Shown piece after piece: positions 1-44,270 of a stretch of DNA of 44,270 nucleotides. The notes beneath the pieces are model-generated. The model ran no database searches. It was not told the DNA's origin and was given only the letters and a program-made list of their open reading frames with translations. Each line of letters opens with the position of its first letter. Position 1 is the first letter of the stretch. This DNA comes from a virus. The DNA is taken from IMG/VR virus record IMGVR_UViG_3300045988_131882; one strand, given 5' to 3'. The translations under genes were made by a program, and so were the position numbers.

Positions 1-234
1 CCGGAGACCAGCGCGTCGCCGTAGACCTCCGCGCTGTCGGAGACCCGCGCGTTGCCGTAGACCTGCGCGTTGCCGGAGACCCACGCGTTGCCGGAGACCC
101 GCGCGTTGCCGGAGACCTCCGCGTTGCCGGAGACCTCCGCGTCGCCGGAGACCCGCGCGTCGCCGTAGACCTCCGCGCTGTCGGAGACCCGCGCGTCGCC
201 GTAGACCTGCGCGTCGCCGGAGACCCACGCGTTG
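1..234. repeat. Tandem 18-bp coding repeat, 13 units (hexapeptide repeat array)
   Basis: Units such as ccggagacccgcgcgttg and ccgtagacctccgcgctg repeat with an exact 18-nt period. Units at 19-90 and 163-234 differ at only 2 nt, giving a 144-bp higher-order repeat. Confidence 0.95.
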
Positions 235-383
235 CCGTCGTGGGAGAGGTTATCTTCCTTCTCAATAAATCCGCCGAGTTCTCCCTTCTCGACGTTGCCA
301 AAAGCGACGAGAGCCTTAACGCGGAACAGCTTCTTCCCGAAAACGTTCGTTACAAATTCGGCGGTCAGTTCAAATTTTTTCAT
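1..383 (-). CDS. Hexapeptide-repeat (beta-helix-like) early protein, N-terminal part; the gene wraps the window junction and continues at 43936..44270
   Basis: rc ATG at 381-383 with AAGGAGG 8 nt upstream. Translation: MKKFELTAEFVTNVFGKKLFRVKALVAFGNVEKGELGGFIEKEDNLSHDGNAWVSGDAQVYGDARVSDSAEVYGDARVSGDAEVSGNAEVSGNARVSGNAW... The ORF is edge-truncated, so it is absent from the supplied track. Confidence 0.8.
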   Translation of the reverse strand, partial: MKKFELTAEFVTNVFGKKLFRVKALVAFGNVEKGELGGFIEKEDNLSHDGNAWVSGDAQVYGDARVSDSAEVYGDARVSGDAEVSGNAEVSGNARVSGNAWVSGNAQVYGNARVSDSAEVYGDALVS

Positions 384-546
384 GGCTGGATGCCTCCTTG
401 AAATACAGCCCGCACAGCAGATTCAGCGCCAGCATGGCGGCGATGGTGGTGGGGATGTTGAGAGAACCGAGCGCAGCAAGCAGCAGCACCAAATCTGCGG
501 TGATTGCCAGCTTGACGGCGGCGCGTTTCAGTGATACAATGTTCAT
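370..546 (-). CDS. Small hydrophobic membrane protein (58 aa)
   Basis: Hand translation: MNIVSLKRAAVKLAITADLVLLLAALGSLNIPTTIAAMLALNLLCGLYFKEASSHEKI. GGAAAG lies upstream of the ATG (544-546 rc). The 3' end overlaps the next gene start. At under 60 aa it is not in the track. Confidence 0.55.
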   Translation of the reverse strand: MNIVSLKRAAVKLAITADLVLLLAALGSLNIPTTIAAMLALNLLCGLYFKEASSHEKI

Positions 547-609
547 GTAATACTTTCCTTTCTGTTCTCGCCGCGTCGGTGCGCCAACACCGATGCGGCG
601 CTTTTTGTT

Positions 610-807
610 TCAGCATAAAAGGCTTGCGATTTGTTCGCAGGTCATGTTGCGGATGCTGCCATAGTGCATCCAGACCCAGCCGCGGGAGCGACCAAGAATC
701 TTTGCGACCTTTCCAGGGCCGAAAAGAATCTCACCGGGGTAAAGCTCGGCAGCGCGGGCACGGACGGTGACAAGGGTGTCACGGTAGAGAGGCTTTTCAC
801 GGGGCAT
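610..807 (-). CDS. Small early protein, possible HTH DNA-binding protein (excisionase or antirepressor type is a guess)
   Basis: 65-aa ORF with AAGGAG 9 nt upstream of the ATG. The segment KVAKILGRSRGWVWMHYG looks like a recognition helix. It is the second gene of the early operon. Confidence 0.6.
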   Translation of the reverse strand: MPREKPLYRDTLVTVRARAAELYPGEILFGPGKVAKILGRSRGWVWMHYGSIRNMTCEQIASLLC

Positions 808-813
808 GGCGGG

Positions 814-999
814 TTACTCCTTTCTTAAAAGTTCGTCTACGGTGCAGCCGTAGAGCTTAGCCATAAGGACGAGCGATGCGGCACGGGGCATGTTCTCGCC
901 GGTTTCCCAGCGGCATACAGCCGACTGGTCAACACCGAGTTCCTTTGCTACCTGTGCTTGGGAAAGACCTGCTTTCTGGCGGGCCTGTGCAAATGCCAT
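814..999 (-). CDS. XRE-family HTH regulator, Cro-like (first gene of the lytic operon)
   Basis: MAFAQARQKAGLSQAQVAKELGVDQSAVCRWETGENMPRAASLVLMAKLYGCTVDELL is a canonical XRE HTH. The ATG at 997-999 rc has GGAGGTG 6 nt upstream (the track starts at an upstream GTG, 1008). It is divergent from the cI-like gene. Confidence 0.85.
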   Translation of the reverse strand: MAFAQARQKAGLSQAQVAKELGVDQSAVCRWETGENMPRAASLVLMAKLYGCTVDELLRKE

Positions 1000-1024
1000 A
1001 AATCTCACCTCCCGAAATGAAATA

Positions 1025-1067
1025 ATGAGATAATCTCATTGACAAACAAGAGAGCCAAAGTTATAAT
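1025..1067 (+). promoter_or_regulatory. Operator palindrome overlapping a consensus sigma-70-type promoter
   Basis: ATGAGAT-a-ATCTCAT is a perfect palindrome at 1025-1039. TTGACA (1039-1044), a 17-nt spacer and TATAAT (1062-1067) follow. A partial copy, ATATCTCAT, lies at 1145-1153. Confidence 0.7.
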
Positions 1068-1231
1068 GAAGTTGTCAGAAATCATTGGTAAGCCGCTGAA
1101 ACATGGGGCTTGGCTTTTGCTTTGCTTGTTTGTATACTATGATTATATCTCATTCTTCTCAAACTTGCAATAGGAAAATCTCAATCTTCTTGATGTTGTA
1201 GGCTTGCACAAAATGAGGTGCAGTAATTTGT

Positions 1232-1558
1232 ATGTTTTGGGATAATTTTGTACTGCTGTGTGACCGCGCCGGAAAATCACCGAACGCAGTTGCGGCAGAA
1301 ATCGGATTCAAGTCAACTGGTACGGTAACAGGATGGAAAGATGGGAAAATACCCTACGAAAGAAACCTTAAGAAAATAGCCGAATACTTTGGTGTAACAG
1401 TTGACTACCTTTTAAACGCAGAAAAAGAAAACCCCACCAGCGTTACCGCTGATGGGGTGGACGAACTAGATAAAGAGGCGCTGGACATCATGCACCAGCT
1501 TCCGCCGGAGAAACGGGCGGCGGGTCTGGCGATGCTGCGAGGGCTTTTAAATAATTAA
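1232..1558 (+). CDS. XRE-family HTH repressor (cI-like) with a short C-terminal tail
   Basis: MFWDNFVLLCDRAGKSPNAVAAEIGFKSTGTVTGWKDGKIPYERNLKKIAEYFGVTVDYLL is an XRE HTH. It is divergent from the Cro-like gene and on the same strand as the integrase. Confidence 0.8.
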   Translation: MFWDNFVLLCDRAGKSPNAVAAEIGFKSTGTVTGWKDGKIPYERNLKKIAEYFGVTVDYLLNAEKENPTSVTADGVDELDKEALDIMHQLPPEKRAAGLAMLRGLLNN

Positions 1559-1625
1559 CATAGGCTGCCTTATCTGGCAGTTGGTGAAGCATGGCAACAA
1601 ATTCCTGATCGCTGATTTCCTGCAT
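1488..1625 (-). CDS. Hypothetical 45-aa ORF, convergent with and partly antisense to the repressor 3' end
   Basis: ATG at 1623-1625 rc with AAGGAGAA upstream. MQEISDQEFVAMLHQLPDKAAYVNYLKALAAS... shares an MxHQLPxxKxAA motif with the repressor tail (DIMHQLPPEKRAAGLAMLRGLL). Confidence 0.3.
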   Translation of the reverse strand: MQEISDQEFVAMLHQLPDKAAYVNYLKALAASPDPPPVSPAEAGA

Positions 1626-1922
1626 GGTCGTTCTCCTTTTTATGTAGCTGCTGTTTTCGATACAACTATAACACAACTTACGGTTGTATTCCATTGACAT
1701 ATTAAACAAATCGGTTGTCAATATTTTGTGGTACGAATTATCGGACGCTTTCTCTTTCTGGTTCTGCCGTGATGGCTGGGCGGCGGCTCTGGCACTTTGC
1801 ACATATCGTAGCTCCTTTTGTTAAAAGTGTACTACGCTCACAATAGGCTTTTTGTCAAAACGTGTAAACGACCAGAAAAGAAAATGCGATACATGACGGA
1901 ATATATCAGCTTACGGGGGTGA

Positions 1923-2345
1923 ATGGGCTTGGATGCGTCGTACATAAAAACGCTGATGGAGCGAGAAAATATCACGCAAGCAGAACTTGCGAGATTGACT
2001 GACATACCGCAAGGGACATTATCGCGAATTTTAAACGGCACAACAGACTGCCCGACATTTGCCAATGTTACGGCCATTGTAAAAGCGCTGCATGGGAGCC
2101 TTGATGTGATGGCCGGAATCGTAGACGAGCCGAACGACAAGCCGATGACGATGACCGAACGGGAGCTATACGAGAAACTGATCGCAGACAAGGAACGGCA
2201 GCTGCGCAGTATAAACGGCATATTGGAACAGAAGCAACAATGGATGCGGATGCTGTGGCGACTGCTGATCGTGATGATAGCAGTTGTCGGCGTGATGCTG
2301 GTGCTTGATGTGTCGATTGGGTCGGTTGGGTTTGTGAGGTACTAA
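1923..2345 (+). CDS. Membrane-anchored XRE-type HTH protein (N-terminal HTH, coiled-coil linker, C-terminal TM helix)
   Basis: ENITQAELARLTDIPQGTLSRILNG is the HTH. The C-terminal WRLLIVMIAVVGVMLVLDVSIG is a TM helix. GGGGGTG lies just upstream of the ATG. Confidence 0.75.
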   Translation: MGLDASYIKTLMERENITQAELARLTDIPQGTLSRILNGTTDCPTFANVTAIVKALHGSLDVMAGIVDEPNDKPMTMTERELYEKLIADKERQLRSINGILEQKQQWMRMLWRLLIVMIAVVGVMLVLDVSIGSVGFVRY

Positions 2346-2346
2346 A

Positions 2347-3072
2347 ATGGGAAACCATATTGTGTACTGGGATAGCGGAACAAATGACGGAGTTATACAC
2401 GAAAGCCCGAACTGCCAAGAACTGCGGCATGTGATAAGCATACACAGAGGCACGCAGGAAGAGGCAAGGCAGACGGGGCGCGTAAAGCAATGCCCCTATT
2501 GCAGCAGCAAGACCGAAGTCCGGGAAAGTGCGGAGCCGCCGACGATGCGGCGGAGCTACAGCATCATGTTGGCGCTGCTGGCGGCCTGCTGTGTGTGGGT
2601 TGGCTGCGCAATTTACTACGATGGCATGGCGGATACGGCCTACAGCAGCGGCTATGCGGCGGCGCAGGCTGATGCGGAGACAACGGCAAGCGAGCGATAC
2701 CGGGCCGGGTATGACACAGGGAAGGAAATTGGGTACAAATCCGGCAAGCGGGAAGGCTATAACAGCGGATACACAGAAGGATACTTCAAGGGAAAAGACG
2801 CAGCGGACACGAACACCGCTTATAATAATGGCTATAATGATGGCTATGCCACAGGGTACGATGACGGAATAGCAAACTCATACGCAAACAGTACACCGGC
2901 ATACAGCGACAGCGAATCTTCTTATAGCAATAATTATACCGTGTATATTACTGCAACGGGAAACAAGTACCACTCTTGGGGTTGCCAGTATTTGAGAAAT
3001 AGTTGTTATAGCATTACTTTGAGTGATGCTATTGCACAAGGATATACAGCTTGTAGCAGGTGTAAGCCATGA
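2347..3072 (+). CDS. Single-pass membrane protein with a GY-repeat tract and a duplicated His/Cys motif at both termini
   Basis: TM helix: YSIMLALLAACCVWVGCAIYY. Repeats: GYDTGKEIGYKSGKREGYNSGYTEGY...NNGYNDGYATGYDDG. N-terminal VIHESPNCQELR...QCPYC resembles C-terminal KYHSWGCQYLR...ACSRC. The start lies 1 nt after the upstream stop. Confidence 0.75.
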   Translation: MGNHIVYWDSGTNDGVIHESPNCQELRHVISIHRGTQEEARQTGRVKQCPYCSSKTEVRESAEPPTMRRSYSIMLALLAACCVWVGCAIYYDGMADTAYSSGYAAAQADAETTASERYRAGYDTGKEIGYKSGKREGYNSGYTEGYFKGKDAADTNTAYNNGYNDGYATGYDDGIANSYANSTPAYSDSESSYSNNYTVYITATGNKYHSWGCQYLRNSCYSITLSDAIAQGYTACSRCKP

Positions 3073-3398
3073 AGGAAGATAGAGTTATAACCAAAAATGA
3101 GTTGCATTCAGCTTTGCTGTCTGTTTGCATTATGGCCGTGTTCGCGATTGCGGCTTTTTACTCTATAGGAAGAGATGAGGGCTATGACAAAGGGTATGAT
3201 GAAGGCTACGATGAAGGTTACAGTGCAGGGTGCGATGAGATAGAAGACAGATATGAAGGGCATCATTACGAAAACGGGTACGAGGATGGATATGAAGACG
3301 GGATGAATGATGGGACTTATGGCATTGATGAGCTAATGGAAGGCTACTACGAAGACGGGTATAACGATGGGTATGCGGACGCATTAGCCGGAGAATAA
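3069..3398 (+). CDS. Single-pass membrane protein with an acidic (D/E)GY repeat tract
   Basis: ATGA overlap with the upstream gene. TM helix: LLSVCIMAVFAIAAFYSI. Repeats: EGYDKGYDEGYDEGYSAG...NGYEDGYEDG...DGYNDGY. Confidence 0.75.
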   Translation: MKEDRVITKNELHSALLSVCIMAVFAIAAFYSIGRDEGYDKGYDEGYDEGYSAGCDEIEDRYEGHHYENGYEDGYEDGMNDGTYGIDELMEGYYEDGYNDGYADALAGE

Positions 3399-3496
3399 AA
3401 AAGCCCCTGCCGGTGAGTCGAGCACCAACAAGGGCAAAGGGTGTCAGCTTTTAGCTGGCATCTTTTAGTATATAGCGATTTTGGGAGGGTGTCAAC

Positions 3497-4612
3497 ATGG
3501 CAAGAGCAAAAGCGCGGGCCGATGGGCTGATTGAACGAACAAGAACCTATGACGGCAAGCGAGTACACTTTTACGGCAAGACCGCGAAAGAGGTCTCCGC
3601 GAAAATTGACGAGTACGAACGCCAGCGGGAAGCGGTAAAAGAGAATGGCCCGCTGTTTGAGGATGTGGCCGGTGAATGGTGGGAGAACCATTCAAAAAAT
3701 ATCAAGACCGGCGCGGAAAGAGCCTACAATGGCAGCTACAAGGCCGCGCTGGAAGAGTTCAGCGGGTATCGCATGAAAGAGATAACGCCCGCGCTGGTGT
3801 CGCTGTGGGGAGAAAAATTCAAGGCCGCAGGGTATGCAGGGAAAACGGCAAGCAACGCCCGGAGCGTGTTGTCTTGTGTGTTCAAGTTTTGGTGCGTCCG
3901 GGATGGCGAAACATACAACCCGGTGACAATTACGGATTTGCCGCGAGGAATGAAAAAGGAGCGCCGGGAGCCGCCGACTGTGGAACAGCTGGAAACGGTC
4001 AAGGCACACCCGGAGGGGTTCGGGCTGTGTGCCTGGCTGTTCATGTATACGGGCTGTCGTTTGGGTGAGGTGCTGGCGCTGCAATGGCAGGATGTGGATT
4101 TTGAGAAAAACAGAATTAGCATAAGTAAAGAAGTGGCATGGGTGCATAATAAGCCGATTGTACAGATGCCCAAGACAGCAAGCGGCGTGCGTGCCGTGCC
4201 GCTGCTGTCGCCGCTGCGGGGCGTGTTGGAACCGCTGCGCGGGGCAGATAATGAGTATATACTTGGAGGGGAAAGGCCGCTGACAGGCACAGCATATCAG
4301 CGCAGATGGGCTTATTATTGCAAGGATGTGGGCATGGCACATTATACCGTACAGGTCCGGAAAAACAAGCACCGGGGCAAGGTGTACGAAACCGCGGTGA
4401 AGGTATGGAAGGCAGATGTCACGGCGCACCAGTTCCGGCACGAATACGCCAGCATGTTATATGCGGCGGGAATTGGAGAGCTGGAAGCGCAACGCCTTAT
4501 GGGGCATGCCGACATTACGACAACACGGCGAGTATATACACATATACGGGAACGCCAACTAGATACAGCAGGAGAGGCACTAGAAAAATTTATAAGCGAT
4601 AAAACGATATAA
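3497..4612 (+). CDS. int: Tyrosine recombinase (phage integrase)
   Basis: 371 aa. Catalytic signature: TGCRLGEVLAL (Arg), HQFRHEYAS (His-x-x-Arg), GHADITTTRRVYTHI (His, Tyr). It lies next to attP-like repeats. Confidence 0.92.
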   Translation: MARAKARADGLIERTRTYDGKRVHFYGKTAKEVSAKIDEYERQREAVKENGPLFEDVAGEWWENHSKNIKTGAERAYNGSYKAALEEFSGYRMKEITPALVSLWGEKFKAAGYAGKTASNARSVLSCVFKFWCVRDGETYNPVTITDLPRGMKKERREPPTVEQLETVKAHPEGFGLCAWLFMYTGCRLGEVLALQWQDVDFEKNRISISKEVAWVHNKPIVQMPKTASGVRAVPLLSPLRGVLEPLRGADNEYILGGERPLTGTAYQRRWAYYCKDVGMAHYTVQVRKNKHRGKVYETAVKVWKADVTAHQFRHEYASMLYAAGIGELEAQRLMGHADITTTRRVYTHIRERQLDTAGEALEKFISDKTI

Positions 4613-4616
4613 TTGA

Positions 4617-4650
4617 AGCCCGGTTGCATGGTGCAATCGGGCTGTTTTTT
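4617..4650 (+). terminator. Rho-independent terminator after int
   Basis: AGCCCG(4617-4622)...CGGGCT(4638-4643), with inner TTGCA/TGCAA pairing, followed by a T run (4645-4650). Confidence 0.8.
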
Positions 4651-4754
4651 TACGACACTTTTACGACATCTTGAAAAAATAAAAGCGTTTACGACGGTTT
4701 TACGACGCGAAAAATAACATACTTGAACATATGGAGACATTGCAAGACGTAGAA

Positions 4755-4796
4755 AAAGAGCGCATCTACGTTAATGATTCGTAGATACGCTCTTTT
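4755..4796. terminator. Imperfect inverted repeat with A/T runs on both sides (bidirectional terminator-like hairpin)
   Basis: aaaaAGAGCGcATCTACg-ttaatgattc-GTAGATaCGCTCTtttt. Confidence 0.55.
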
Positions 4797-4801
4797 TGAA
4801 A

Positions 4802-4829
4802 TGGTGCGGCTAACAGGACTTGAACCTGT
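4802..4829 (-). other. Fragment identical in form to the 3' end of a tRNA gene (T arm, 3' acceptor strand, discriminator A, CCA): putative attP core
   Basis: The rc reads ACAGG-TTCAAGT-CCTGT-TAGCCGC-A-CCA. No matching 5' acceptor strand (GCGGCTA), D arm or anticodon arm lies upstream, so this is not a complete tRNA. Confidence 0.7.
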
Positions 4830-4919
4830 TTATATGTTCGATGTATCGTTGATAATGCGGTTTTATACGACACAAATACGACGTTTCAAACGAATAAATC
4901 AACGATGGCTTGCAGCTAT

Positions 4920-5102
4920 TCAATCGTAAATTTCATTAAACCAGAGCGGGCCGAAGCGGTAGGAGATCACGTAAGACGGATGAAGGCGGGCGCTGTCGGA
5001 GGCGGAGACTAGGCGAGCGCTCAACATGGTGGCACGGCATCCGGCAGCGAAGGATGCCGCCAGCGCGGCGGCGATGATGGCGGATAGAATAAATTTCTTC
5101 AT
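4920..5102 (-). CDS. Small lipoprotein (moron next to attP)
   Basis: MKKFILSAIIAAALAASFAAGC is a signal peptide with a lipobox Cys. AAGGAG lies upstream of the ATG. Confidence 0.7.
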   Translation of the reverse strand: MKKFILSAIIAAALAASFAAGCRATMLSARLVSASDSARLHPSYVISYRFGPLWFNEIYD

Positions 5103-5181
5103 GGTGGTTACTCCTTATTTGCCCGGCCGATGATCTCGGCCAGAATCTTGTGACGGTTGGCAGGCGTGGCAAGGGCCATCG

Positions 5182-6828
5182 TCAGGCGGGGTTGTGGGAG
5201 GCAAGCTGCATAAGCGTTGCGGTGGTGGGGACCAGATGCCGCGCCATCGTGTCGTTGTAGCCGGTCTCGCCTTCGAAGCTGTCCACGACGGCGCGATCTG
5301 CCGTGCTCATGTCGTGATAGGTCTTTTTGCCGTAGGACGGAGGCAGCCAGCCTTTTTTCTGGGATGCGAAGATGTTGAAGGATTTCAGCACATCGGCGTT
5401 GGTGAACTCGATGTGACAGGTGCCTTTTTTGTAGAACGTGGCGGTGAAGTAGTGCAGCTTGATCTTGGTGGTCTGGCCGCTGGCCTCGGCAGCTTTGAGG
5501 GTGGCGCGGAGGTCATCGCCGTTGTAGGCGGTGCCGTTGGTGTCGAGGAAGTGAAGCGTTTTCTCGATGTTGGCGATCTCCTCCGCGATGTTGGTCGGGT
5601 AAAAATCGTCGGAGTAGACGCTGTAGGCATTGCAGCGGAAGATCATGTGCTTATCGACCTTGTAGGCGGAATTTGTGCACCAGCCGTTGTAATAGTGGAC
5701 ATTTTTGCTGTACTCGCTGTTGTAGTGAAGGTTGGTCCAATCATCAAAAAGGCGGATGATCTCGGATTCGATGTTGGAGACGATGTTGCGGGAGATTTCC
5801 TCGCGGATCGTGAGGATGTTGTAGGGGCTAAAATCGTAGTGGCAAAGGTCGTTGAGGCGCTTGTGGTAGTCGTTCTGCATCGTCTGCGTCATGGCGTCGC
5901 GGATTTGCGGAAGGTCGAAAAGCTGCTCCCAATAGATGGCGCGGAGATCGCACAGCGCGTCGTTGTAGCCCTTGTCGAGGGAGACACAGGGCGCGGGGGC
6001 GCTGCTGTCGCCCTGCTTTTTGGGTAGGGTGAAAAGCGAGGAAATACCGTCGTATTCTTCATACAGGCGGGCGAGACAGTCCGCGGCGGCGTTGTAGCGC
6101 TCGACTGCTGCCGTGAGGGGGTCATTGCTGACGAGGGCTACCAGGTCGGGCGCGGCCTGGTAGCGATGTGTCGTCTCGGCGTTGAGCTCTAAGCGGATGC
6201 GGGAGACAGGCGGCGCGGGCGGGATCGTGACGAAAACGAGCGCAACCTCCACCGCGGTTTTGCGGGTGGCGTGGGTGAAAGCGTCCTGCTTGTAGGTGAT
6301 CCGGGCGTTGTACTTGGCAAGCAGGGCGGCAAGCTCCTTGCGCTCGTTGGTGCAGGGGTTGCGGATCGTCTCGGCGTTGAGGATGCAGCGGACTTCCCCG
6401 CCCCGCTCCATGATGTGCAGGGCGTGCAGCAGGTGGCGCGCACCCTCGGAAAACGGCGGGTTCATGATGATCGCCTTGTAGTGGGCGCGGGGCGTGAAGG
6501 TGAGGAAATCGTCGTGGATGACGCGGAAGCCGTTTTCTTTGAGGGTGGCCCGGAGGGCGGCGGACTGCTCGATGCAGTCGAGCTGCAGGGCCTCCAAGCG
6601 GTACTTGTTCTTGGTTCTGTAGTAGTCGTCGCGGGTGCCGTCGCTGTTGTAGTGGATGTCGGCGGCCTTCTCGATGGCGCGGGCGAGGTCGCCGGAACCG
6701 GCGGACGGCTCCAGGATGGGGCCGCCTGCGTACTCGATGCTGTGGCCGTCGATCTTGAGACCGGCGAGCAGCTCCGCGGCGAGGGCCGGGGGCGTTGGGT
6801 AGTAGTCTTTGCTGTCGTTCGGAATCAT
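5182..6828 (-). CDS. SAM-dependent N6-adenine DNA methyltransferase (orphan, no cognate nuclease seen) with a large C-terminal extension
   Basis: Motif I is ILEPSAGSGDLA and motif IV is IIMNPPFSEG (NPPF). 548 aa. GGAGG lies upstream of the start. Confidence 0.85.
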   Translation of the reverse strand: MIPNDSKDYYPTPPALAAELLAGLKIDGHSIEYAGGPILEPSAGSGDLARAIEKAADIHYNSDGTRDDYYRTKNKYRLEALQLDCIEQSAALRATLKENGFRVIHDDFLTFTPRAHYKAIIMNPPFSEGARHLLHALHIMERGGEVRCILNAETIRNPCTNERKELAALLAKYNARITYKQDAFTHATRKTAVEVALVFVTIPPAPPVSRIRLELNAETTHRYQAAPDLVALVSNDPLTAAVERYNAAADCLARLYEEYDGISSLFTLPKKQGDSSAPAPCVSLDKGYNDALCDLRAIYWEQLFDLPQIRDAMTQTMQNDYHKRLNDLCHYDFSPYNILTIREEISRNIVSNIESEIIRLFDDWTNLHYNSEYSKNVHYYNGWCTNSAYKVDKHMIFRCNAYSVYSDDFYPTNIAEEIANIEKTLHFLDTNGTAYNGDDLRATLKAAEASGQTTKIKLHYFTATFYKKGTCHIEFTNADVLKSFNIFASQKKGWLPPSYGKKTYHDMSTADRAVVDSFEGETGYNDTMARHLVPTTATLMQLASHNPA

Positions 6829-43939: not shown

Positions 43940-44270
43940 TCGTCGGCCTCCTGATTTTCTTCCTCATCAGAAAAATGCAGCTCCATCAAGTCGGCGATTG
44001 CGAGGTACTCTTTGGCTCGTTTGCTGTCTCCGTGGGTTTTCTTGACGATTTCACGGAATTGCTCCAAATCGCCGTAGAAGCATCCGCACTGTACGCGGAG
44101 AATCTTGTCCTTGCAGCGGAAAAATGTGGTCGCACGGAAAAATCGGCCGAAGCCTTTAACGGTGGCATAGTCCGCGTTGCCGTAGACCCGCGCGTTGCCG
44201 GAGACCAGCGCGTCGCCGTAGACCTCCGCGCTGTCGGAGACCCGCGCGTTGCCGTAGACCTGCGCGTTGC
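43936..44270 (-). CDS. Hexapeptide-repeat early protein, C-terminal part (continuation of 1..383 across the circular junction)
   Basis: ...VSGNARVYGNADYATVKGFGRFFRATTFFRCKDKILRVQCGCFYGDLEQFREIVKKTHGDSKRAKEYLAIADLMELHFSDEEENQEADE, with the stop at 43936-43938 rc. nt 44198-44270 duplicate nt 1-73. Confidence 0.8.
   Translation of the reverse strand, partial: NAQVYGNARVSDSAEVYGDALVSGNARVYGNADYATVKGFGRFFRATTFFRCKDKILRVQCGCFYGDLEQFREIVKKTHGDSKRAKEYLAIADLMELHFSDEEENQEADE
44180..44270. repeat. Continuation of the 18-bp tandem repeat array; the last 73 nt duplicate the window start
   Basis: ccgtagacccgcgcgttg, ccggagaccagcgcgtcg, ccgtagacctccgcgctg, tcggagacccgcgcgttg, ccgtagacctgcgcgttg, then c. 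Confidence 0.95.

What the first reader, a model, noticed from the sequence alone, without database searches (positions are those of the whole stretch)
1923..3398. Lysogeny-module trio: membrane-tethered HTH protein plus two GY-repeat single-pass membrane proteins
Three translationally coupled genes sit between the cI-like repressor and the integrase, the part of a temperate phage normally expressed in the lysogen. The first stop at 2343-2345 is followed by a start at 2347, and there is an ATGA overlap at 3069-3072.

1. An XRE-type HTH joined by a coiled-coil linker to a C-terminal TM helix.
2. A single-pass membrane protein whose two ends carry the same His/Cys motif: VIHESPNCQELR...GRVKQCPYC at the N-terminus and KYHSWGCQYLR...GYTACSRC at the C-terminus. 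A TM helix and a period-4 tract (GYDTGKEIGYKSGKREGYNSGYTEGY...NNGYNDGYATGYDDG) separate them.
3. A second single-pass protein with an acidic version of the same repeat (EGYDKGYDEGYDEGY...NGYEDGYEDG...DGYNDGY).

I cannot place the GY repeat in a named family. A membrane-anchored transcription factor co-transcribed with two repeat-bearing membrane partners could be a superinfection-exclusion or defence module, or a membrane-signal input to the lysis-lysogeny decision.
Basis: partly seen in the sequence, partly recalled or inferred. Interest (0 to 1): 0.62.

Follow-up and report, generated by a model that had tools for sequence, protein, structure and literature searches.

The report
Phage membrane regulator with swappable cargo
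In a temperate gut phage, a conserved membrane-anchored DNA-binding protein sits in front of a swap slot next to the integrase, and here that slot holds two surface proteins (a glycine-zipper stalk with an Ada-like zinc head) that most likely protect the lysogen from other phages, so the 'trio' is a regulator plus exchangeable cargo rather than one machine.

Summary
The three ORFs exist exactly as described and evolve as real genes (dN/dS 0.04-0.27). They lie in the lysogeny module of a complete 44-kb temperate gut phage; a related prophage sits in a Gemmiger/Subdoligranulum-like genome.

They are not one conserved unit.
- Gene 1 (XRE HTH, long helix, C-terminal TM) and about 270 bp of upstream control DNA form a sharply bounded cassette. 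Gene 1 has over 150 homologous protein clusters.
- The DNA between its stop codon and a conserved hairpin before int is a cargo slot. In 24 loci fetched through gene 1 alone, the slot is empty in 6 and holds a GY protein in 8. Only 1 has the full trio. The rest hold other, unrelated membrane proteins.
- GY proteins also precede int in phages without gene 1. In two contigs gene 1 is precisely deleted.

The GY repeat is a FliH/Yae1-type GxxxG glycine repeat. The His/Cys motif is an Ada-like zinc domain, common in exported proteins and often joined to secreted nucleases. Lipoprotein homologues place the repeat and C-domain outside the cell. This anchor-stalk-head design resembles Ltp exclusion proteins.

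Function is inferred, not shown.

The parts
1660..1922 (.). Conserved control region that travels with gene 1. It contains the palindrome ACAAC-N5-GTTGT at 1673-1687 and promoter-like hexamers for the minus strand (TTTACA-17-TATTGT, 1868-1840).
   Evidence: - blastn blocks start at 1659/1660 in five mosaic relatives.
- The region is conserved in 24 distinct sequences.
- The palindrome arms are invariant apart from one base in two sequences, with 11 different spacers.
- The palindrome occurs once in the window.
- Promoter scan.
1718..1804 (-). A 28-aa, very basic micro-ORF (MCKVPEPPPSHHGRTRKRKRPIIRTTKY) transcribed divergently from gene 1.
   Evidence: - An AAAGGAG ribosome-binding site lies 7 nt upstream.
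- The reading frame is kept in all 12 loci examined, including those where gene 1 is only 63-79% identical.
- One relative has a synonymous AGA-to-CGT Arg change.
1923..2345 (+). Gene 1: a membrane-tethered XRE-type DNA-binding protein. HTH at residues 5-63, disordered linker at 64-77, juxtamembrane helix at 78-110, TM at about 112-128, and a conserved 12-aa tail (D.xIGSxGFxRY).
   Evidence: - Pfam HTH_3 43.4 bits.
- 151 homologous clusters at 67-99% identity.
- Alignment A1 has 84% mean column identity, including the linker helix and tail.
- AlphaFold2 model.
- Fold matches are SinR, HipB, CapH-NTD and P22 c2.
- dN/dS 0.04-0.15.
2347..2511 (+). Gene 2 N-terminal domain (residues 1-55): a cytoplasmic His-Cys3 zinc-ribbon-like domain.
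   Evidence: - pLDDT 82-93, with strand-strand-strand-helix-strand order.
- H18, C23, C50 and C53 are conserved in homologues that have the domain.
- The domain is absent from lipoprotein homologues and duplicated in P0017/P0018.
- It precedes the RR-flanked TM, so it is predicted to face inside.
2554..2625 (+). Gene 2 transmembrane helix (residues 70-93), predicted N-in, C-out.
   Evidence: - Hydropathy analysis.
- 'MRRS' lies before the helix and acidic residues lie after it.
- In homologues P0024, P0025, P0027 and P0029, a lipoprotein signal peptide with lipobox replaces the N-domain and TM.
2707..2868 (+). Gene 2 GxxxG glycine-repeat stalk: 8 consecutive Gxxx units (residues 121-152) plus 3 more (162-174), with Tyr at the position after Gly.
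   Evidence: - Shuffle test.
- Pfam Yae1_N scores 23.2 bits, below the 27.5 cut-off.
- NCBIfam FliH models match only this tract.
- Length and sequence vary between homologues. P0026 and P0028 have a Pro/Thr linker in its place.
- The model is helical here but at low confidence.
2935..3069 (+). Gene 2 C-terminal head (residues 197-241): an extracellular Ada-like His-Cys3 zinc domain, and the conserved part of the family.
   Evidence: - Nearly invariant in alignment A2.
- The only PDB fold matches of the gene-2 model are N-Ada 1u8b and 1zgw, about 48 columns (probability 0.98).
- 5,277 cluster representatives carry the domain.
- Of the best 145, 51 hit Ada_Zn_binding, 45 hit DUF6233 and 24 carry SNase.
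- 97 of those 145 have an N-terminal signal peptide or anchor.
- H, C, C and C are invariant.
- GC3 is 35%, against 60-70% for the phage.
3069..3398 (+). Gene 3: a small single-pass protein. TM at residues 15-33, then a very acidic (net -23) GxxxG/GY ectodomain.
   Evidence: - ORF and ATGA overlap.
- Yae1_N scores 27.3 bits against a 27.5 cut-off.
- Charge and TM.
- dN/dS 0.12-0.14.
- It has only near-identical homologues and two weak hits.
- It follows the GY-type gene 2 in the window, L058-L061 and L069, and the Pro/Thr-linker relative in L065/L066, always with the same ATGA overlap.
3398..3435 (.). Conserved hairpin that closes the cargo slot. On the minus strand it reads as an intrinsic terminator.
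   Evidence: - Terminator scan.
- The 3398-3505 block is 89-90% identical in L001 and L002, although their integrases are only 33% identical.
- In L016, which has an empty slot, the same hairpin follows the gene 1 stop codon directly.
3497..4612 (+). Tyrosine integrase, the right-hand neighbour of the slot.
   Evidence: - Pfam Phage_integrase 62.7 bits and phrog_1 at E 5e-59.
- Five integrase types occur next to gene 1 in relatives.

Best explanation
The region has two layers.

**(1) A conserved cassette (shown).**
- It consists of a 270-bp control region (1660-1922), a divergent 28-aa micro-ORF, and gene 1.
- Gene 1 is an XRE-type DNA-binding protein held at the inner face of the membrane by a C-terminal TM helix. 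This makes it a phage-encoded transmembrane transcription regulator.

**(2) A cargo slot (shown).**
- The slot runs from the gene 1 stop codon (2346/2347) to a conserved hairpin (3398) in front of int.
- In relatives it is empty or holds one or two membrane proteins of at least seven unrelated kinds.
- Genes 2 and 3 are this phage's cargo.

**Gene 2 architecture (inferred from sequence, model and homologues).**
- It is a single-pass N-in/C-out protein.
- A zinc domain faces the cytoplasm.
- Outside the cell, a GxxxG glycine-zipper helix forms a stalk or oligomerisation element.
- The stalk carries an Ada-like His-Cys3 zinc domain as the conserved head.

**Gene 3 (inferred).** A small partner with a very acidic GxxxG ectodomain.

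**Function (inferred, not shown).**
- Genes 2 and 3 are made in the lysogen and act at the cell surface as superinfection-exclusion or phage-resistance proteins. This is the same anchor-spacer-head design and the same genomic slot as Ltp-type exclusion lipoproteins.
- The head, or the acidic gene 3 ectodomain, would bind a component of an incoming phage such as the tape measure or ejected DNA.
- Gene 1 most likely regulates its own operon and the divergent micro-ORF unit through the invariant palindrome, whatever cargo follows it.
For: **Phage context.**
- The window encodes terL, portal, endolysin, DnaB, int and cI/cro.
- Its ends overlap by 73 nt.

**Cassette boundaries.**
- blastn blocks run 1659/60 to 2345-2347 at 84-98% identity in L002, L005, L006, L007 and L009, while the flanks differ.
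- The empty slot in L016 has the hairpin directly after the gene 1 stop.

**Slot content in 32 loci.**

| Content | Loci |
|---|---|
| GY + gene 3 | 6 |
| GY + 158-aa protein | 1 |
| GY alone | 9 |
| 214-aa multipass | 6 |
| 157-aa multipass with zinc ribbon | 2 |
| 295-aa | 1 |
| 279-aa | 1 |
| Empty | 6 |

- Every cargo protein has predicted TM segments.
- Integrase and cI types are shuffled independently of the cargo.

**GY proteins are independent of gene 1.**
- They lie directly upstream of int in other lysogeny backbones that lack gene 1: an S24-type cI in L003 and an ImmA-like protein in L067.

**Topology.**
- Four homologues replace the N-domain and TM with a lipoprotein signal peptide.
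- 97 of 145 proteins carrying the head domain have an N-terminal export signal or anchor.

**Head domain.**
- The only PDB fold matches are N-Ada.
- Virome homologues are auto-named 'Metal binding domain of Ada'.
- 24 of 145 relatives carry a staphylococcal-nuclease domain, 3 carry PLDc_2 and 3 carry a metallo-beta-lactamase domain.

**Stalk.**
- Yae1_N and FliH repeat-region hits.
- FliH GxxxG repeats favour Tyr at x1 and are thought to mediate helix-helix packing (PMC2674601).

**Foreign origin.**
- GC3 is 35% for the gene 2 C-domain and 44.5% for gene 3, against 60-70% for the phage.
- The block from 3025 onward is shared with L065, which has a different upstream part.

**Gene 1 as regulator.**
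- Generic XRE repressor fold.
- A PADLOC capH hit spans the HTH and the helix (E 6e-7).
- Palindrome arms are essentially invariant, with variable spacers, in 24 sequences.
- HTH is the commonest DNA-binding domain among membrane-bound one-component regulators (PMC10269533).
Against: - There is no expression, localisation or phenotype data of any kind.
- No PADLOC defence model matches gene 2, gene 3 or the alternative cargo.
- Genes 2 and 3 have no sequence similarity to Ltp or any tested exclusion protein.
- The head domain's association with nucleases suggests DNA binding. That could serve functions unrelated to phages.
- Gene 3 keeps 96% identity next to a gene 2 relative that has no GxxxG stalk. 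This weakens the idea that genes 2 and 3 pair through their glycine repeats.
- Gene 1 is naturally deleted in two contigs, so it is not essential. Its target DNA is a guess based on conservation.
- The plus-strand promoter of gene 1 could not be located convincingly.
- The confidence of both structure models is modest (mean pLDDT 66-67).
Confidence: 0.55

Rival explanations
1. The trio is one signalling device. Gene 1 is a membrane-tethered transcription factor whose activity or proteolytic release is controlled by the two GY partners, which sense something at the cell surface and feed it into the lysis-lysogeny decision.
For: - The genes are translationally coupled.
- All three proteins are at the membrane.
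- Gene 1 faces a divergent unit made of a micro-ORF and then a small helical ORF that loosely resembles cI C-terminal tails. That ORF ends at a strong minus-strand terminator inside cI.
- The trio does travel as a block in the 5 trio loci inspected; gene 2's cluster lies on at least 23 contigs.
Against: - Gene 1 at 97-99% identity is followed by unrelated cargo.
- In 6 of 24 loci found through gene 1 alone, nothing follows it.
- Only 1 of those 24 loci has the trio.
- GY proteins occur without gene 1.
- Gene 1 is cleanly deleted in L065/L066 while gene 3 and a gene 2 relative stay.
- Gene 1 shows no co-variation with the cargo.
Confidence: 0.1
2. Gene 1 and the membrane protein after it form a toxin-antitoxin or abortive-infection pair. 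The XRE protein would be the antitoxin or repressor, and the membrane protein the effector that damages the membrane upon infection.
For: - XRE antitoxin models give weak hits: HipB, HigA and Xre-like.
- Gene order and coupling resemble type II modules.
- Membrane-anchored prophage Abi proteins exist, such as PdpSau and AbiP (PMC10127798).
- All cargo proteins are membrane proteins.
Against: - Gene 1 stands alone in 6 loci.
- Cargo stands without gene 1 in L003, L065 and L067. A toxin without its antitoxin should not persist.
- Most of gene 2 is predicted to lie outside the cell and has no pore-forming features.
- No PADLOC hit for the cargo.
Confidence: 0.08
3. Genes 2 and 3 are lysogenic-conversion factors that serve the host rather than act against phages. 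For example, they could bind extracellular DNA or surface polymers for adhesion or biofilm matrix, or interfere with DNA uptake.
For: - The head domain is common in exported bacterial proteins and is fused to secreted nucleases (SNase, PLD-like, MBL). This points to DNA binding outside the cell.
- A lipoprotein homologue lies next to ordinary metabolic genes rather than phage genes (L063).
- The N-Ada fold is a DNA-binding fold.
Against: - GY proteins recur exactly in the slot before int in at least four different lysogeny backbones. In Gram-positive phages that slot typically holds exclusion genes (PMC3952083).
- Stalk length and ectodomains turn over quickly, which looks more like an arms race.
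Confidence: 0.2
4. Gene 1 itself is the exclusion protein. A DNA-binding domain parked at the inner face of the membrane would capture or block the genome of an incoming related phage at its point of entry.
For: - Gene 1 and its palindrome are conserved across heteroimmune relatives whose cI and cro differ. A resident copy could therefore recognise incoming relatives.
- AbiP and PdpSau are precedents for membrane-anchored nucleic-acid-binding proteins.
Against: - The palindrome occurs only once per genome.
- The gene is dispensable in L065/L066.
- No test was possible.
Confidence: 0.07

Closest known systems
Ltp-type superinfection-exclusion lipoproteins of temperate Streptococcus thermophilus phages (TP-J34; PMC3952083)
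   Same: - Both are encoded in the lysogeny module next to int.
- Both have the same three-part design: membrane anchor, low-complexity spacer, and a small globular head exposed on the cell surface.
- In both, the head uses a fold otherwise known from DNA-binding proteins.
- Some gene 2 homologues are true lipoproteins.
   Different: - There is no sequence similarity.
- The head is an Ada-like His-Cys3 zinc domain, not HTH repeats.
- The spacer is a GxxxG helix, not a serine-rich coil.
- Gene 2 has an extra cytoplasmic zinc domain and a TM helix instead of a lipid anchor.
- Exclusion activity is untested.
FliH/YscL GxxxG glycine repeats (PMC2674601) and the deca-GX3 motif of Yae1-Lto1 (Pfam PF09811; PMC4523923)
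   Same: - Long runs of Gly at every fourth residue.
- Tyr is favoured right after Gly and acidic or polar residues elsewhere.
- The tract is predicted helical and variable in length.
- Yae1 and Lto1 are two separate proteins that both carry the motif and work as a complex, as genes 2 and 3 might.
   Different: - Those proteins are cytoplasmic: a flagellar/T3SS ATPase regulator and a eukaryotic Fe-S adaptor.
- Here the repeat is predicted to be extracellular.
- Only the repeat tract matches, and scores are below the family cut-offs.
N-terminal zinc domain of E. coli Ada (Pfam PF02805; PDB 1U8B, 1ZGW)
   Same: - It is the only solved fold matched by the gene 2 model.
- Ligand spacing is the same: x3 between the first two ligands and x2 between the last two.
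- The A..xG(Y/F)..C..C signature is shared.
- 51 of 145 relatives of the head domain hit the Pfam model.
   Different: - The first ligand, Ada Cys38, is the methyl acceptor. Here it is His, so a repair function is not expected.
- The domain is a 45-aa stand-alone module, often tandem, and mostly on exported proteins.
- Gene 2 itself scores below the Pfam cut-off: 17.2 against 23 bits.
Transmembrane transcription regulators (BcrR, ToxR/TcpP, CadC; PMC10269533)
   Same: Gene 1 has a cytoplasmic DNA-binding domain and a membrane anchor in one polypeptide. HTH is the commonest DNA-binding domain in this class.
   Different: - Gene 1 has only about 12 residues outside the membrane, so it has no sensor domain.
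- It is phage-encoded and sits at the head of a variable cargo slot.
- DNA binding from the membrane is not shown.
Regulators at the head of defence cargo (CapH of CBASS; ImmR-type phage repressors)
   Same: - A small XRE HTH is followed by a helical oligomerisation segment.
- The PADLOC capH model aligns over residues 6-105 (E 6e-7).
- The fold search lists the CapH N-domain.
- The regulator is conserved while the cargo varies.
   Different: - There is no CapP/ImmA protease partner next to it.
- Gene 1 carries a TM helix, which those proteins lack.

Membership tests
XRE / Cro-C1 HTH (Pfam PF01381 HTH_3) | Score above the curated cut-off and a five-helix HTH fold | tested here: met
   - Gene 1 scores 43.4 bits against a cut-off of 23.
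- The model has helices at 5-15, 19-26, 30-37, 46-55 and 60-63.
- Fold matches are SinR, HipB, CapH-NTD and P22 c2.
Transmembrane transcription regulators (one-component, membrane-bound) | A DNA-binding domain and at least one TM helix in the same protein | tested here: met
   - HTH as in the row above.
- The 19-aa hydropathy window scores 2.88 at residues 114-132, with hydrophobic character conserved across 27 homologues.
Transmembrane transcription regulators (one-component, membrane-bound) | Binds its target DNA and regulates transcription while in the membrane | not testable with these tools
   There is only an indirect hint: a palindrome with near-invariant arms and 11 spacer variants in the co-conserved upstream region.
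Yae1_N (Pfam PF09811, deca-GX3) | Score above the gathering cut-off of 27.5 bits | tested here: not met
   - Gene 3 scores 27.3 bits and gene 2 scores 23.2 bits.
- Several gene 2 homologues do carry a precomputed PF09811 hit.
- The similarity lies in the repeat only.
FliH (NCBIfam PRK05687 and relatives) | Full-length match above the cut-offs (180-293 bits), including the FliI-binding C-terminal domain | tested here: not met
   Scores are 17-31 bits, confined to the GxxxG tract at model positions 30-128.
Ada_Zn_binding (Pfam PF02805) | Score above 23 bits | tested here: not met
   - Gene 2 scores 17.2 bits, matching only the last 21 residues.
- 51 of 145 proteins with the same head domain do match (E up to 0.001), with a best E of 2e-15.
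Ada_Zn_binding (Pfam PF02805) | Four Cys zinc ligands, the first being the methyl-accepting Cys38 | tested here: not met
   - The first ligand is His in both domains of gene 2.
- It is invariant His across the 145 relatives.
- The Cys38 role is from established knowledge of N-Ada.
Ada_Zn_binding (Pfam PF02805) | N-Ada fold | tested here: met
   - Foldseek against the PDB returns only 1u8b_A (probability 0.98, rmsd 2.5 over 48 columns, E 0.31) and 1zgw.
- The E-value is weak because the domain is short.
Ltp-type superinfection exclusion proteins | Encoded in the lysogeny module, with a membrane anchor, a spacer and a surface head | tested here: met
   - Position next to int.
- Predicted topology and lipoprotein homologues.
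Ltp-type superinfection exclusion proteins | Sequence or fold homology to the Ltp HTH repeat domain | tested here: not met
   No such hit in the Pfam, PHROG, PDB or BFVD searches.
Ltp-type superinfection exclusion proteins | Blocks DNA entry of superinfecting phage | not testable with these tools
   This needs a host, a phage panel and expression constructs.
Known anti-phage defence systems (PADLOC-DB 2.0) | A match of gene 2, gene 3 or the alternative cargo to any model | tested here: not met
   There are no hits for genes 2 and 3 or for five alternative slot proteins. Only the gene 1 HTH hits capH.

The most novel reading that the evidence does not exclude
Gene 1 is a membrane-tethered repressor of a second immunity region.

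- Through the invariant palindrome it would hold down the divergent minus-strand unit. That unit consists of the 28-aa basic micro-ORF followed by a small helical ORF that resembles repressor C-terminal tails and terminates antisense inside cI.
- Damage to or occupation of the membrane, possibly by an incoming phage or through the cargo proteins, would inactivate gene 1 and tip the prophage toward induction.
- This would be a phage-encoded envelope sensor wired to an antirepressor. It would be analogous in logic to P22 immI (Mnt/Arc/Ant), but with its input at the membrane.
Probability: 0.12. Interest if true: 0.8.

Novelty: new variant of a known kind. Interest (0 to 1): 0.45.

Why it matters
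- **A cargo hot spot in uncultured gut phages.** It defines a precisely bounded slot, from the gene 1 stop codon to the conserved hairpin, in a widespread group of gut Oscillospiraceae phages. The slot collects at least seven families of uncharacterised membrane proteins. It is a ready-made list of candidate exclusion or defence genes for bacteria that have almost no experimental phage biology.
- **Names for two unplaced features.** The GY repeat is a FliH/Yae1-type glycine zipper, here used outside the cell. The His/Cys motif is an Ada-like zinc module that is very common on exported proteins (5,277 cluster representatives) and on secreted nucleases. Gene 2 itself matches no Pfam family above its cut-off.
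- **A conserved phage-encoded membrane-bound XRE regulator.** Gene 1, with its divergent micro-ORF, is a compact and testable control element of lysogeny.

Tried and rejected
- **Trio as a conserved unit:** rejected on gene-neighbourhood evidence.
- **Gene 1 as immunity repressor or recombination directionality factor:** rejected. Gene 1 stays 63-99% identical next to cI, cro and integrase types that share only 24-47% identity.
- **Gene 2 as a member of FliH, Yae1 or Ada repair proteins:** rejected. See the membership tests.
- **Sequence search of the PDB with profiles of gene 2 and gene 1:** nothing significant.
- **Rfam scan of 1-5200:** no hit.
- **GTDB representative genomes:** no relative of gene 1.
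- **GenBank phages:** no gene 1 relative, and only one fragmentary match to the gene 2 head.
- **Gene 3 homologues:** essentially none beyond near-identical copies.
- **Homology of the two ends of gene 2:** the profile comparison gives only E 0.01 over 17 columns.
- **Cognate mimicry between the small minus-strand ORFs and their own cI tails:** the score matrix is equivocal, with the diagonal best in 3 of 5 types.
- **Plus-strand promoter for gene 1:** none convincing in the consensus scan.
- **The window's own assembly** is not held for the genome search.
- **Earlier scan notes:** none match genes 1 or 2 on other DNA.


Full report
**1. What is in the sequence**

The ORF list and raw sequence confirm the three plus-strand genes at 1923-2345 (140 aa), 2347-3072 (241 aa) and 3069-3398 (109 aa). 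The TAA-A-ATG junction at 2343-2349 and the ATGA overlap at 3069-3072 are as described.

The window is a temperate phage. It has a tyrosine integrase at 3497-4612, divergent Cro-like (814-1008, minus) and cI-like (1232-1558) XRE genes, terL, portal, a structural protein, an endolysin-like protein and a DnaB helicase. The two ends of the window share 73 nt, so the contig is probably a complete circularly assembled genome.

A related prophage sits in a 370-kb contig. Its flanking aminotransferase is 98% identical to two gut MAGs with discordant labels, 93% to a Subdoligranulum variabile MAG and 84-86% to Gemmiger formicilis. The hosts are therefore gut Oscillospiraceae.

**2. Gene 1**

- **Domains.** Pfam HTH_3 scores 43.4 bits. 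The AlphaFold2 model shows a five-helix HTH, a disordered linker at residues 64-77, and a single helix at 78-139 that contains the hydrophobic segment. Fold matches are ordinary XRE repressors and antitoxins: SinR, HipB, the CapH N-domain and P22 c2.
- **Conservation.** The protein has 151 homologous clusters at 67-99% identity, all from gut metagenome assemblies. Conservation extends over the linker helix, the TM segment and the 12-residue tail. dN/dS is 0.04-0.15.
- **Absence from reference collections.** No relative is present in GTDB representative genomes or GenBank phages.
- **Class.** It fits the known class of membrane-bound one-component regulators, in which HTH is the commonest DNA-binding domain (PMC10269533).

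**3. The trio is not a unit**

I collected 32 loci in which gene 1 and its downstream DNA can be read and classified what follows gene 1.

| Content after gene 1 | Loci |
|---|---|
| GY protein + gene 3 | 6 |
| GY protein + 158-aa multipass protein | 1 |
| GY protein alone | 9 |
| 214-aa multipass protein | 6 |
| 157-aa multipass protein with zinc ribbon | 2 |
| 295-aa protein (gene 2 N-domain, different ectodomain) | 1 |
| 279-aa protein | 1 |
| Nothing | 6 |

Some loci were fetched through gene 2 homologues, which biases the count. In the 24 loci found through gene 1 alone, GY proteins fill 8 slots, the full trio fills 1, and 6 are empty.

Nucleotide comparison shows why. The block from 1659/60 to 2345-2347 is 84-98% identical in five relatives whose flanks do not align. 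A second conserved block starts at 3394-3398. In an empty locus, the hairpin found at 3398-3435 follows the gene 1 stop codon directly. The slot is thus bounded by the gene 1 stop on the left and the hairpin on the right.

The integrase (five types) and cI are shuffled independently of the cargo.

The reverse also holds:
- GY proteins sit directly before int in phages without gene 1. L003 has an S24-type cI, and L067 has an ImmA-like protein.
- In L065/L066, gene 1 is deleted from codon 2 to its stop. The control region, a gene 2 relative and a 96%-identical gene 3 remain.

**4. Gene 2**

Alignment of 28 homologues shows that the C-terminal 45 residues are nearly invariant: TVYITATGxKYHxxGCxYL...AIAQGYTACSRCNP. 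The N-terminal His/Cys domain is optional or duplicated. The GY tract varies in length and is replaced by a Pro/Thr linker in two homologues.

Four homologues begin with a lipoprotein signal peptide instead of the N-domain and TM. This places the GY tract and C-domain outside the cell. It agrees with the RR-before and acidic-after pattern around the TM of gene 2.

The AlphaFold2 model is confident for both end domains, which have the same secondary-structure order, and for the TM helix. The GY tract is helical at low confidence.

*The head domain.*
- The only PDB fold matches are the N-terminal zinc domain of Ada, 1u8b and 1zgw.
- BFVD returns gut-virome homologues auto-named 'Metal binding domain of Ada'.
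- An exhaustive phmmer search with the 49-residue head finds 5,277 cluster representatives, often with 2-9 copies per protein.
- Among the best 145, 51 match Ada_Zn_binding, 45 match DUF6233, 24 carry a staphylococcal nuclease domain, 3 carry PLDc_2 and 3 carry a metallo-beta-lactamase domain.
- 97 of the 145 have an N-terminal signal peptide or anchor.
- His, Cys, Cys and Cys are the only invariant columns. The first ligand, the methyl-accepting Cys38 in Ada, is His here. The domain is therefore a structural zinc module, probably a DNA- or ligand-binding accessory of exported proteins, and not a repair domain.

*Similarity of the two ends.* Sequence homology between the two ends of gene 2 is only weakly supported.

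**5. The GY repeat**

- The repeat is a run of Gly at every fourth residue: 8 consecutive units at residues 121-152 of gene 2 plus 3 more, and 5 plus shorter runs in gene 3. It is far beyond chance.
- It hits Pfam Yae1_N just below the cut-off, and it hits the repeat tract of FliH models.
- The FliH study reports that Tyr is strongly favoured at the position after Gly and argues for helix-helix packing (PMC2674601).
- Yae1 and Lto1 are two proteins that share the motif and form a complex (PMC4523923).
Neither protein belongs to those families.

**6. Gene 3**

- It is a real gene: dN/dS is 0.12-0.14, with 8-9 synonymous against 5 non-synonymous changes.
- It has a TM helix and a net -23 ectodomain.
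- It has no homologues beyond near-identical copies.
- It always follows a protein ending in the head domain, with the same ATGA overlap. This includes the variant without a GY stalk, so pairing through the glycine repeats is not required.
- The gene 2 C-domain has GC3 of 35% and gene 3 has 44.5%, far below the phage's 60-70%. The block from 3025 onward is shared with L065. This is the composition signature of imported cargo.

**7. Likely function**

*Shown:* a conserved regulator cassette, a bounded slot, exchangeable membrane-protein cargo, and the predicted surface exposure of the gene 2 stalk and head.

*Inferred:*
- Genes next to int in the lysogeny module of Gram-positive temperate phages are typically expressed in the lysogen.
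- The best-studied example, Ltp, has the same anchor-spacer-head layout and blocks DNA entry by binding the tape measure protein (PMC3952083).
- Fast turnover of stalk and ectodomain, and the variety of membrane cargo, fit a phage-phage arms race.
- I therefore rank superinfection exclusion or phage resistance first for genes 2 and 3.
- A host-serving surface function, such as extracellular DNA binding, ranks second, because the head domain accompanies secreted nucleases.

*For gene 1,* the most economical reading is a membrane-bound autoregulator of the operon and of the divergent micro-ORF unit. It is comparable in position to CapH-like regulators at the head of variable defence cargo; the PADLOC capH hit has E 6e-7.

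No defence model matches any cargo.

**8. The control region**

- The 270 bp upstream of gene 1 are conserved even where gene 1 is 63% identical.
- They encode, on the minus strand, a 28-aa basic micro-ORF with a strong ribosome-binding site. It is kept in all 12 loci checked and shows a synonymous AGA-to-CGT change in one.
- They also carry a palindrome, ACAAC-N5-GTTGT. Its arms are invariant apart from one base in two sequences, and its spacer takes 11 forms in 24 sequences. It is unique in the genome.
- Downstream on the minus strand there is always a 33-48-aa helical ORF with a strong ribosome-binding site.
- In this window that ORF ends 30 nt before a strong minus-strand terminator inside cI.
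- Its similarity to cI tails is visible but not clearly cognate-specific.
- This arrangement keeps alive, at low probability, the reading that gene 1 gates an antirepressor unit.

**9. Verdict**

The finding is a new variant of known kinds: lysogeny-module surface morons, and a membrane-bound XRE regulator. Its real value is as a defined cargo hot spot in uncultured gut phages. It is neither a categorically new system nor a three-part machine.

Noticed in passing
window 1718-1804 (minus): A conserved 28-aa, very basic micro-ORF (PPxHHGRxRKRKRPIIRT core) with an AAAGGAG ribosome-binding site, divergent from gene 1. It is present in all 12 related loci checked, including the one where gene 1 is deleted. 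It has no Pfam match.
   Followed up: partly
window 1673-1687: A palindrome, ACAAC-N5-GTTGT, whose arms are invariant apart from one base in two sequences and whose spacer takes 11 forms across 24 related sequences. It is unique in the 44-kb genome. It is a candidate operator or small hairpin between the micro-ORF and the 45-aa ORF.
   Followed up: partly
window 1431-1625 (minus): The 45-aa minus-strand ORF (1625-1488) is followed 30 nt later by a strong minus-strand terminator-like hairpin with a T-run (1458-1431) inside the cI coding region. A real convergent transcription unit therefore probably ends antisense in cI. Analogous 33-48-aa ORFs occupy this position in all relatives.
   Followed up: partly
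window 3403-3495 (minus): A near-consensus minus-strand promoter (TTGACA-17-TATACT, 3495-3467) overlaps the int start and is followed at once by a minus-strand terminator (3435-3403). This could produce a short antisense RNA at the int 5' end. The 3398-3505 block stays 89-90% identical next to integrases that are only 33% identical.
   Followed up: no
L065 2273-3483 and L066: Natural variants from two different sequencing runs in which gene 1 is deleted exactly from codon 2 to its stop. This places a 196-aa gene 2 relative (Pro/Thr linker instead of GY repeats) and gene 3 directly behind the conserved control region.
   Followed up: yes
L005 3458-4102; L007 4142-4615; L021 2994-3881; L074 2948-3787; L062 2332-2808: Alternative cargo in the same slot, none matching Pfam or PADLOC models significantly:
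- a 214-aa multipass protein;
- 157/158-aa multipass proteins ending in a CxxC...C zinc ribbon;
- a 295-aa protein with the gene 2 N-domain and a different beta-rich ectodomain;
- a 279-aa coiled-coil plus multipass protein.
   Followed up: partly
window 2926-3398: The gene 2 C-domain (GC3 35%) and gene 3 (GC3 44.5%) are much poorer in G+C than the rest of gene 2 (N-domain and TM, GC3 68%) and the phage (about 60-70%). Gene 2 is therefore a recombinant whose 3' end came in together with gene 3.
   Followed up: yes
L002 2526-3326 and L078 1829-2605: Some relatives carry a second GY-family paralogue (265-266 aa) between cI and gene 1, in addition to the one after gene 1.
   Followed up: no
window 1-73 and 44198-44270: The first and last 73 nt of the window are identical and lie inside an 18-nt tandem repeat of an early gene. 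This is consistent with a circular assembly closed within the repeat.
   Followed up: partly
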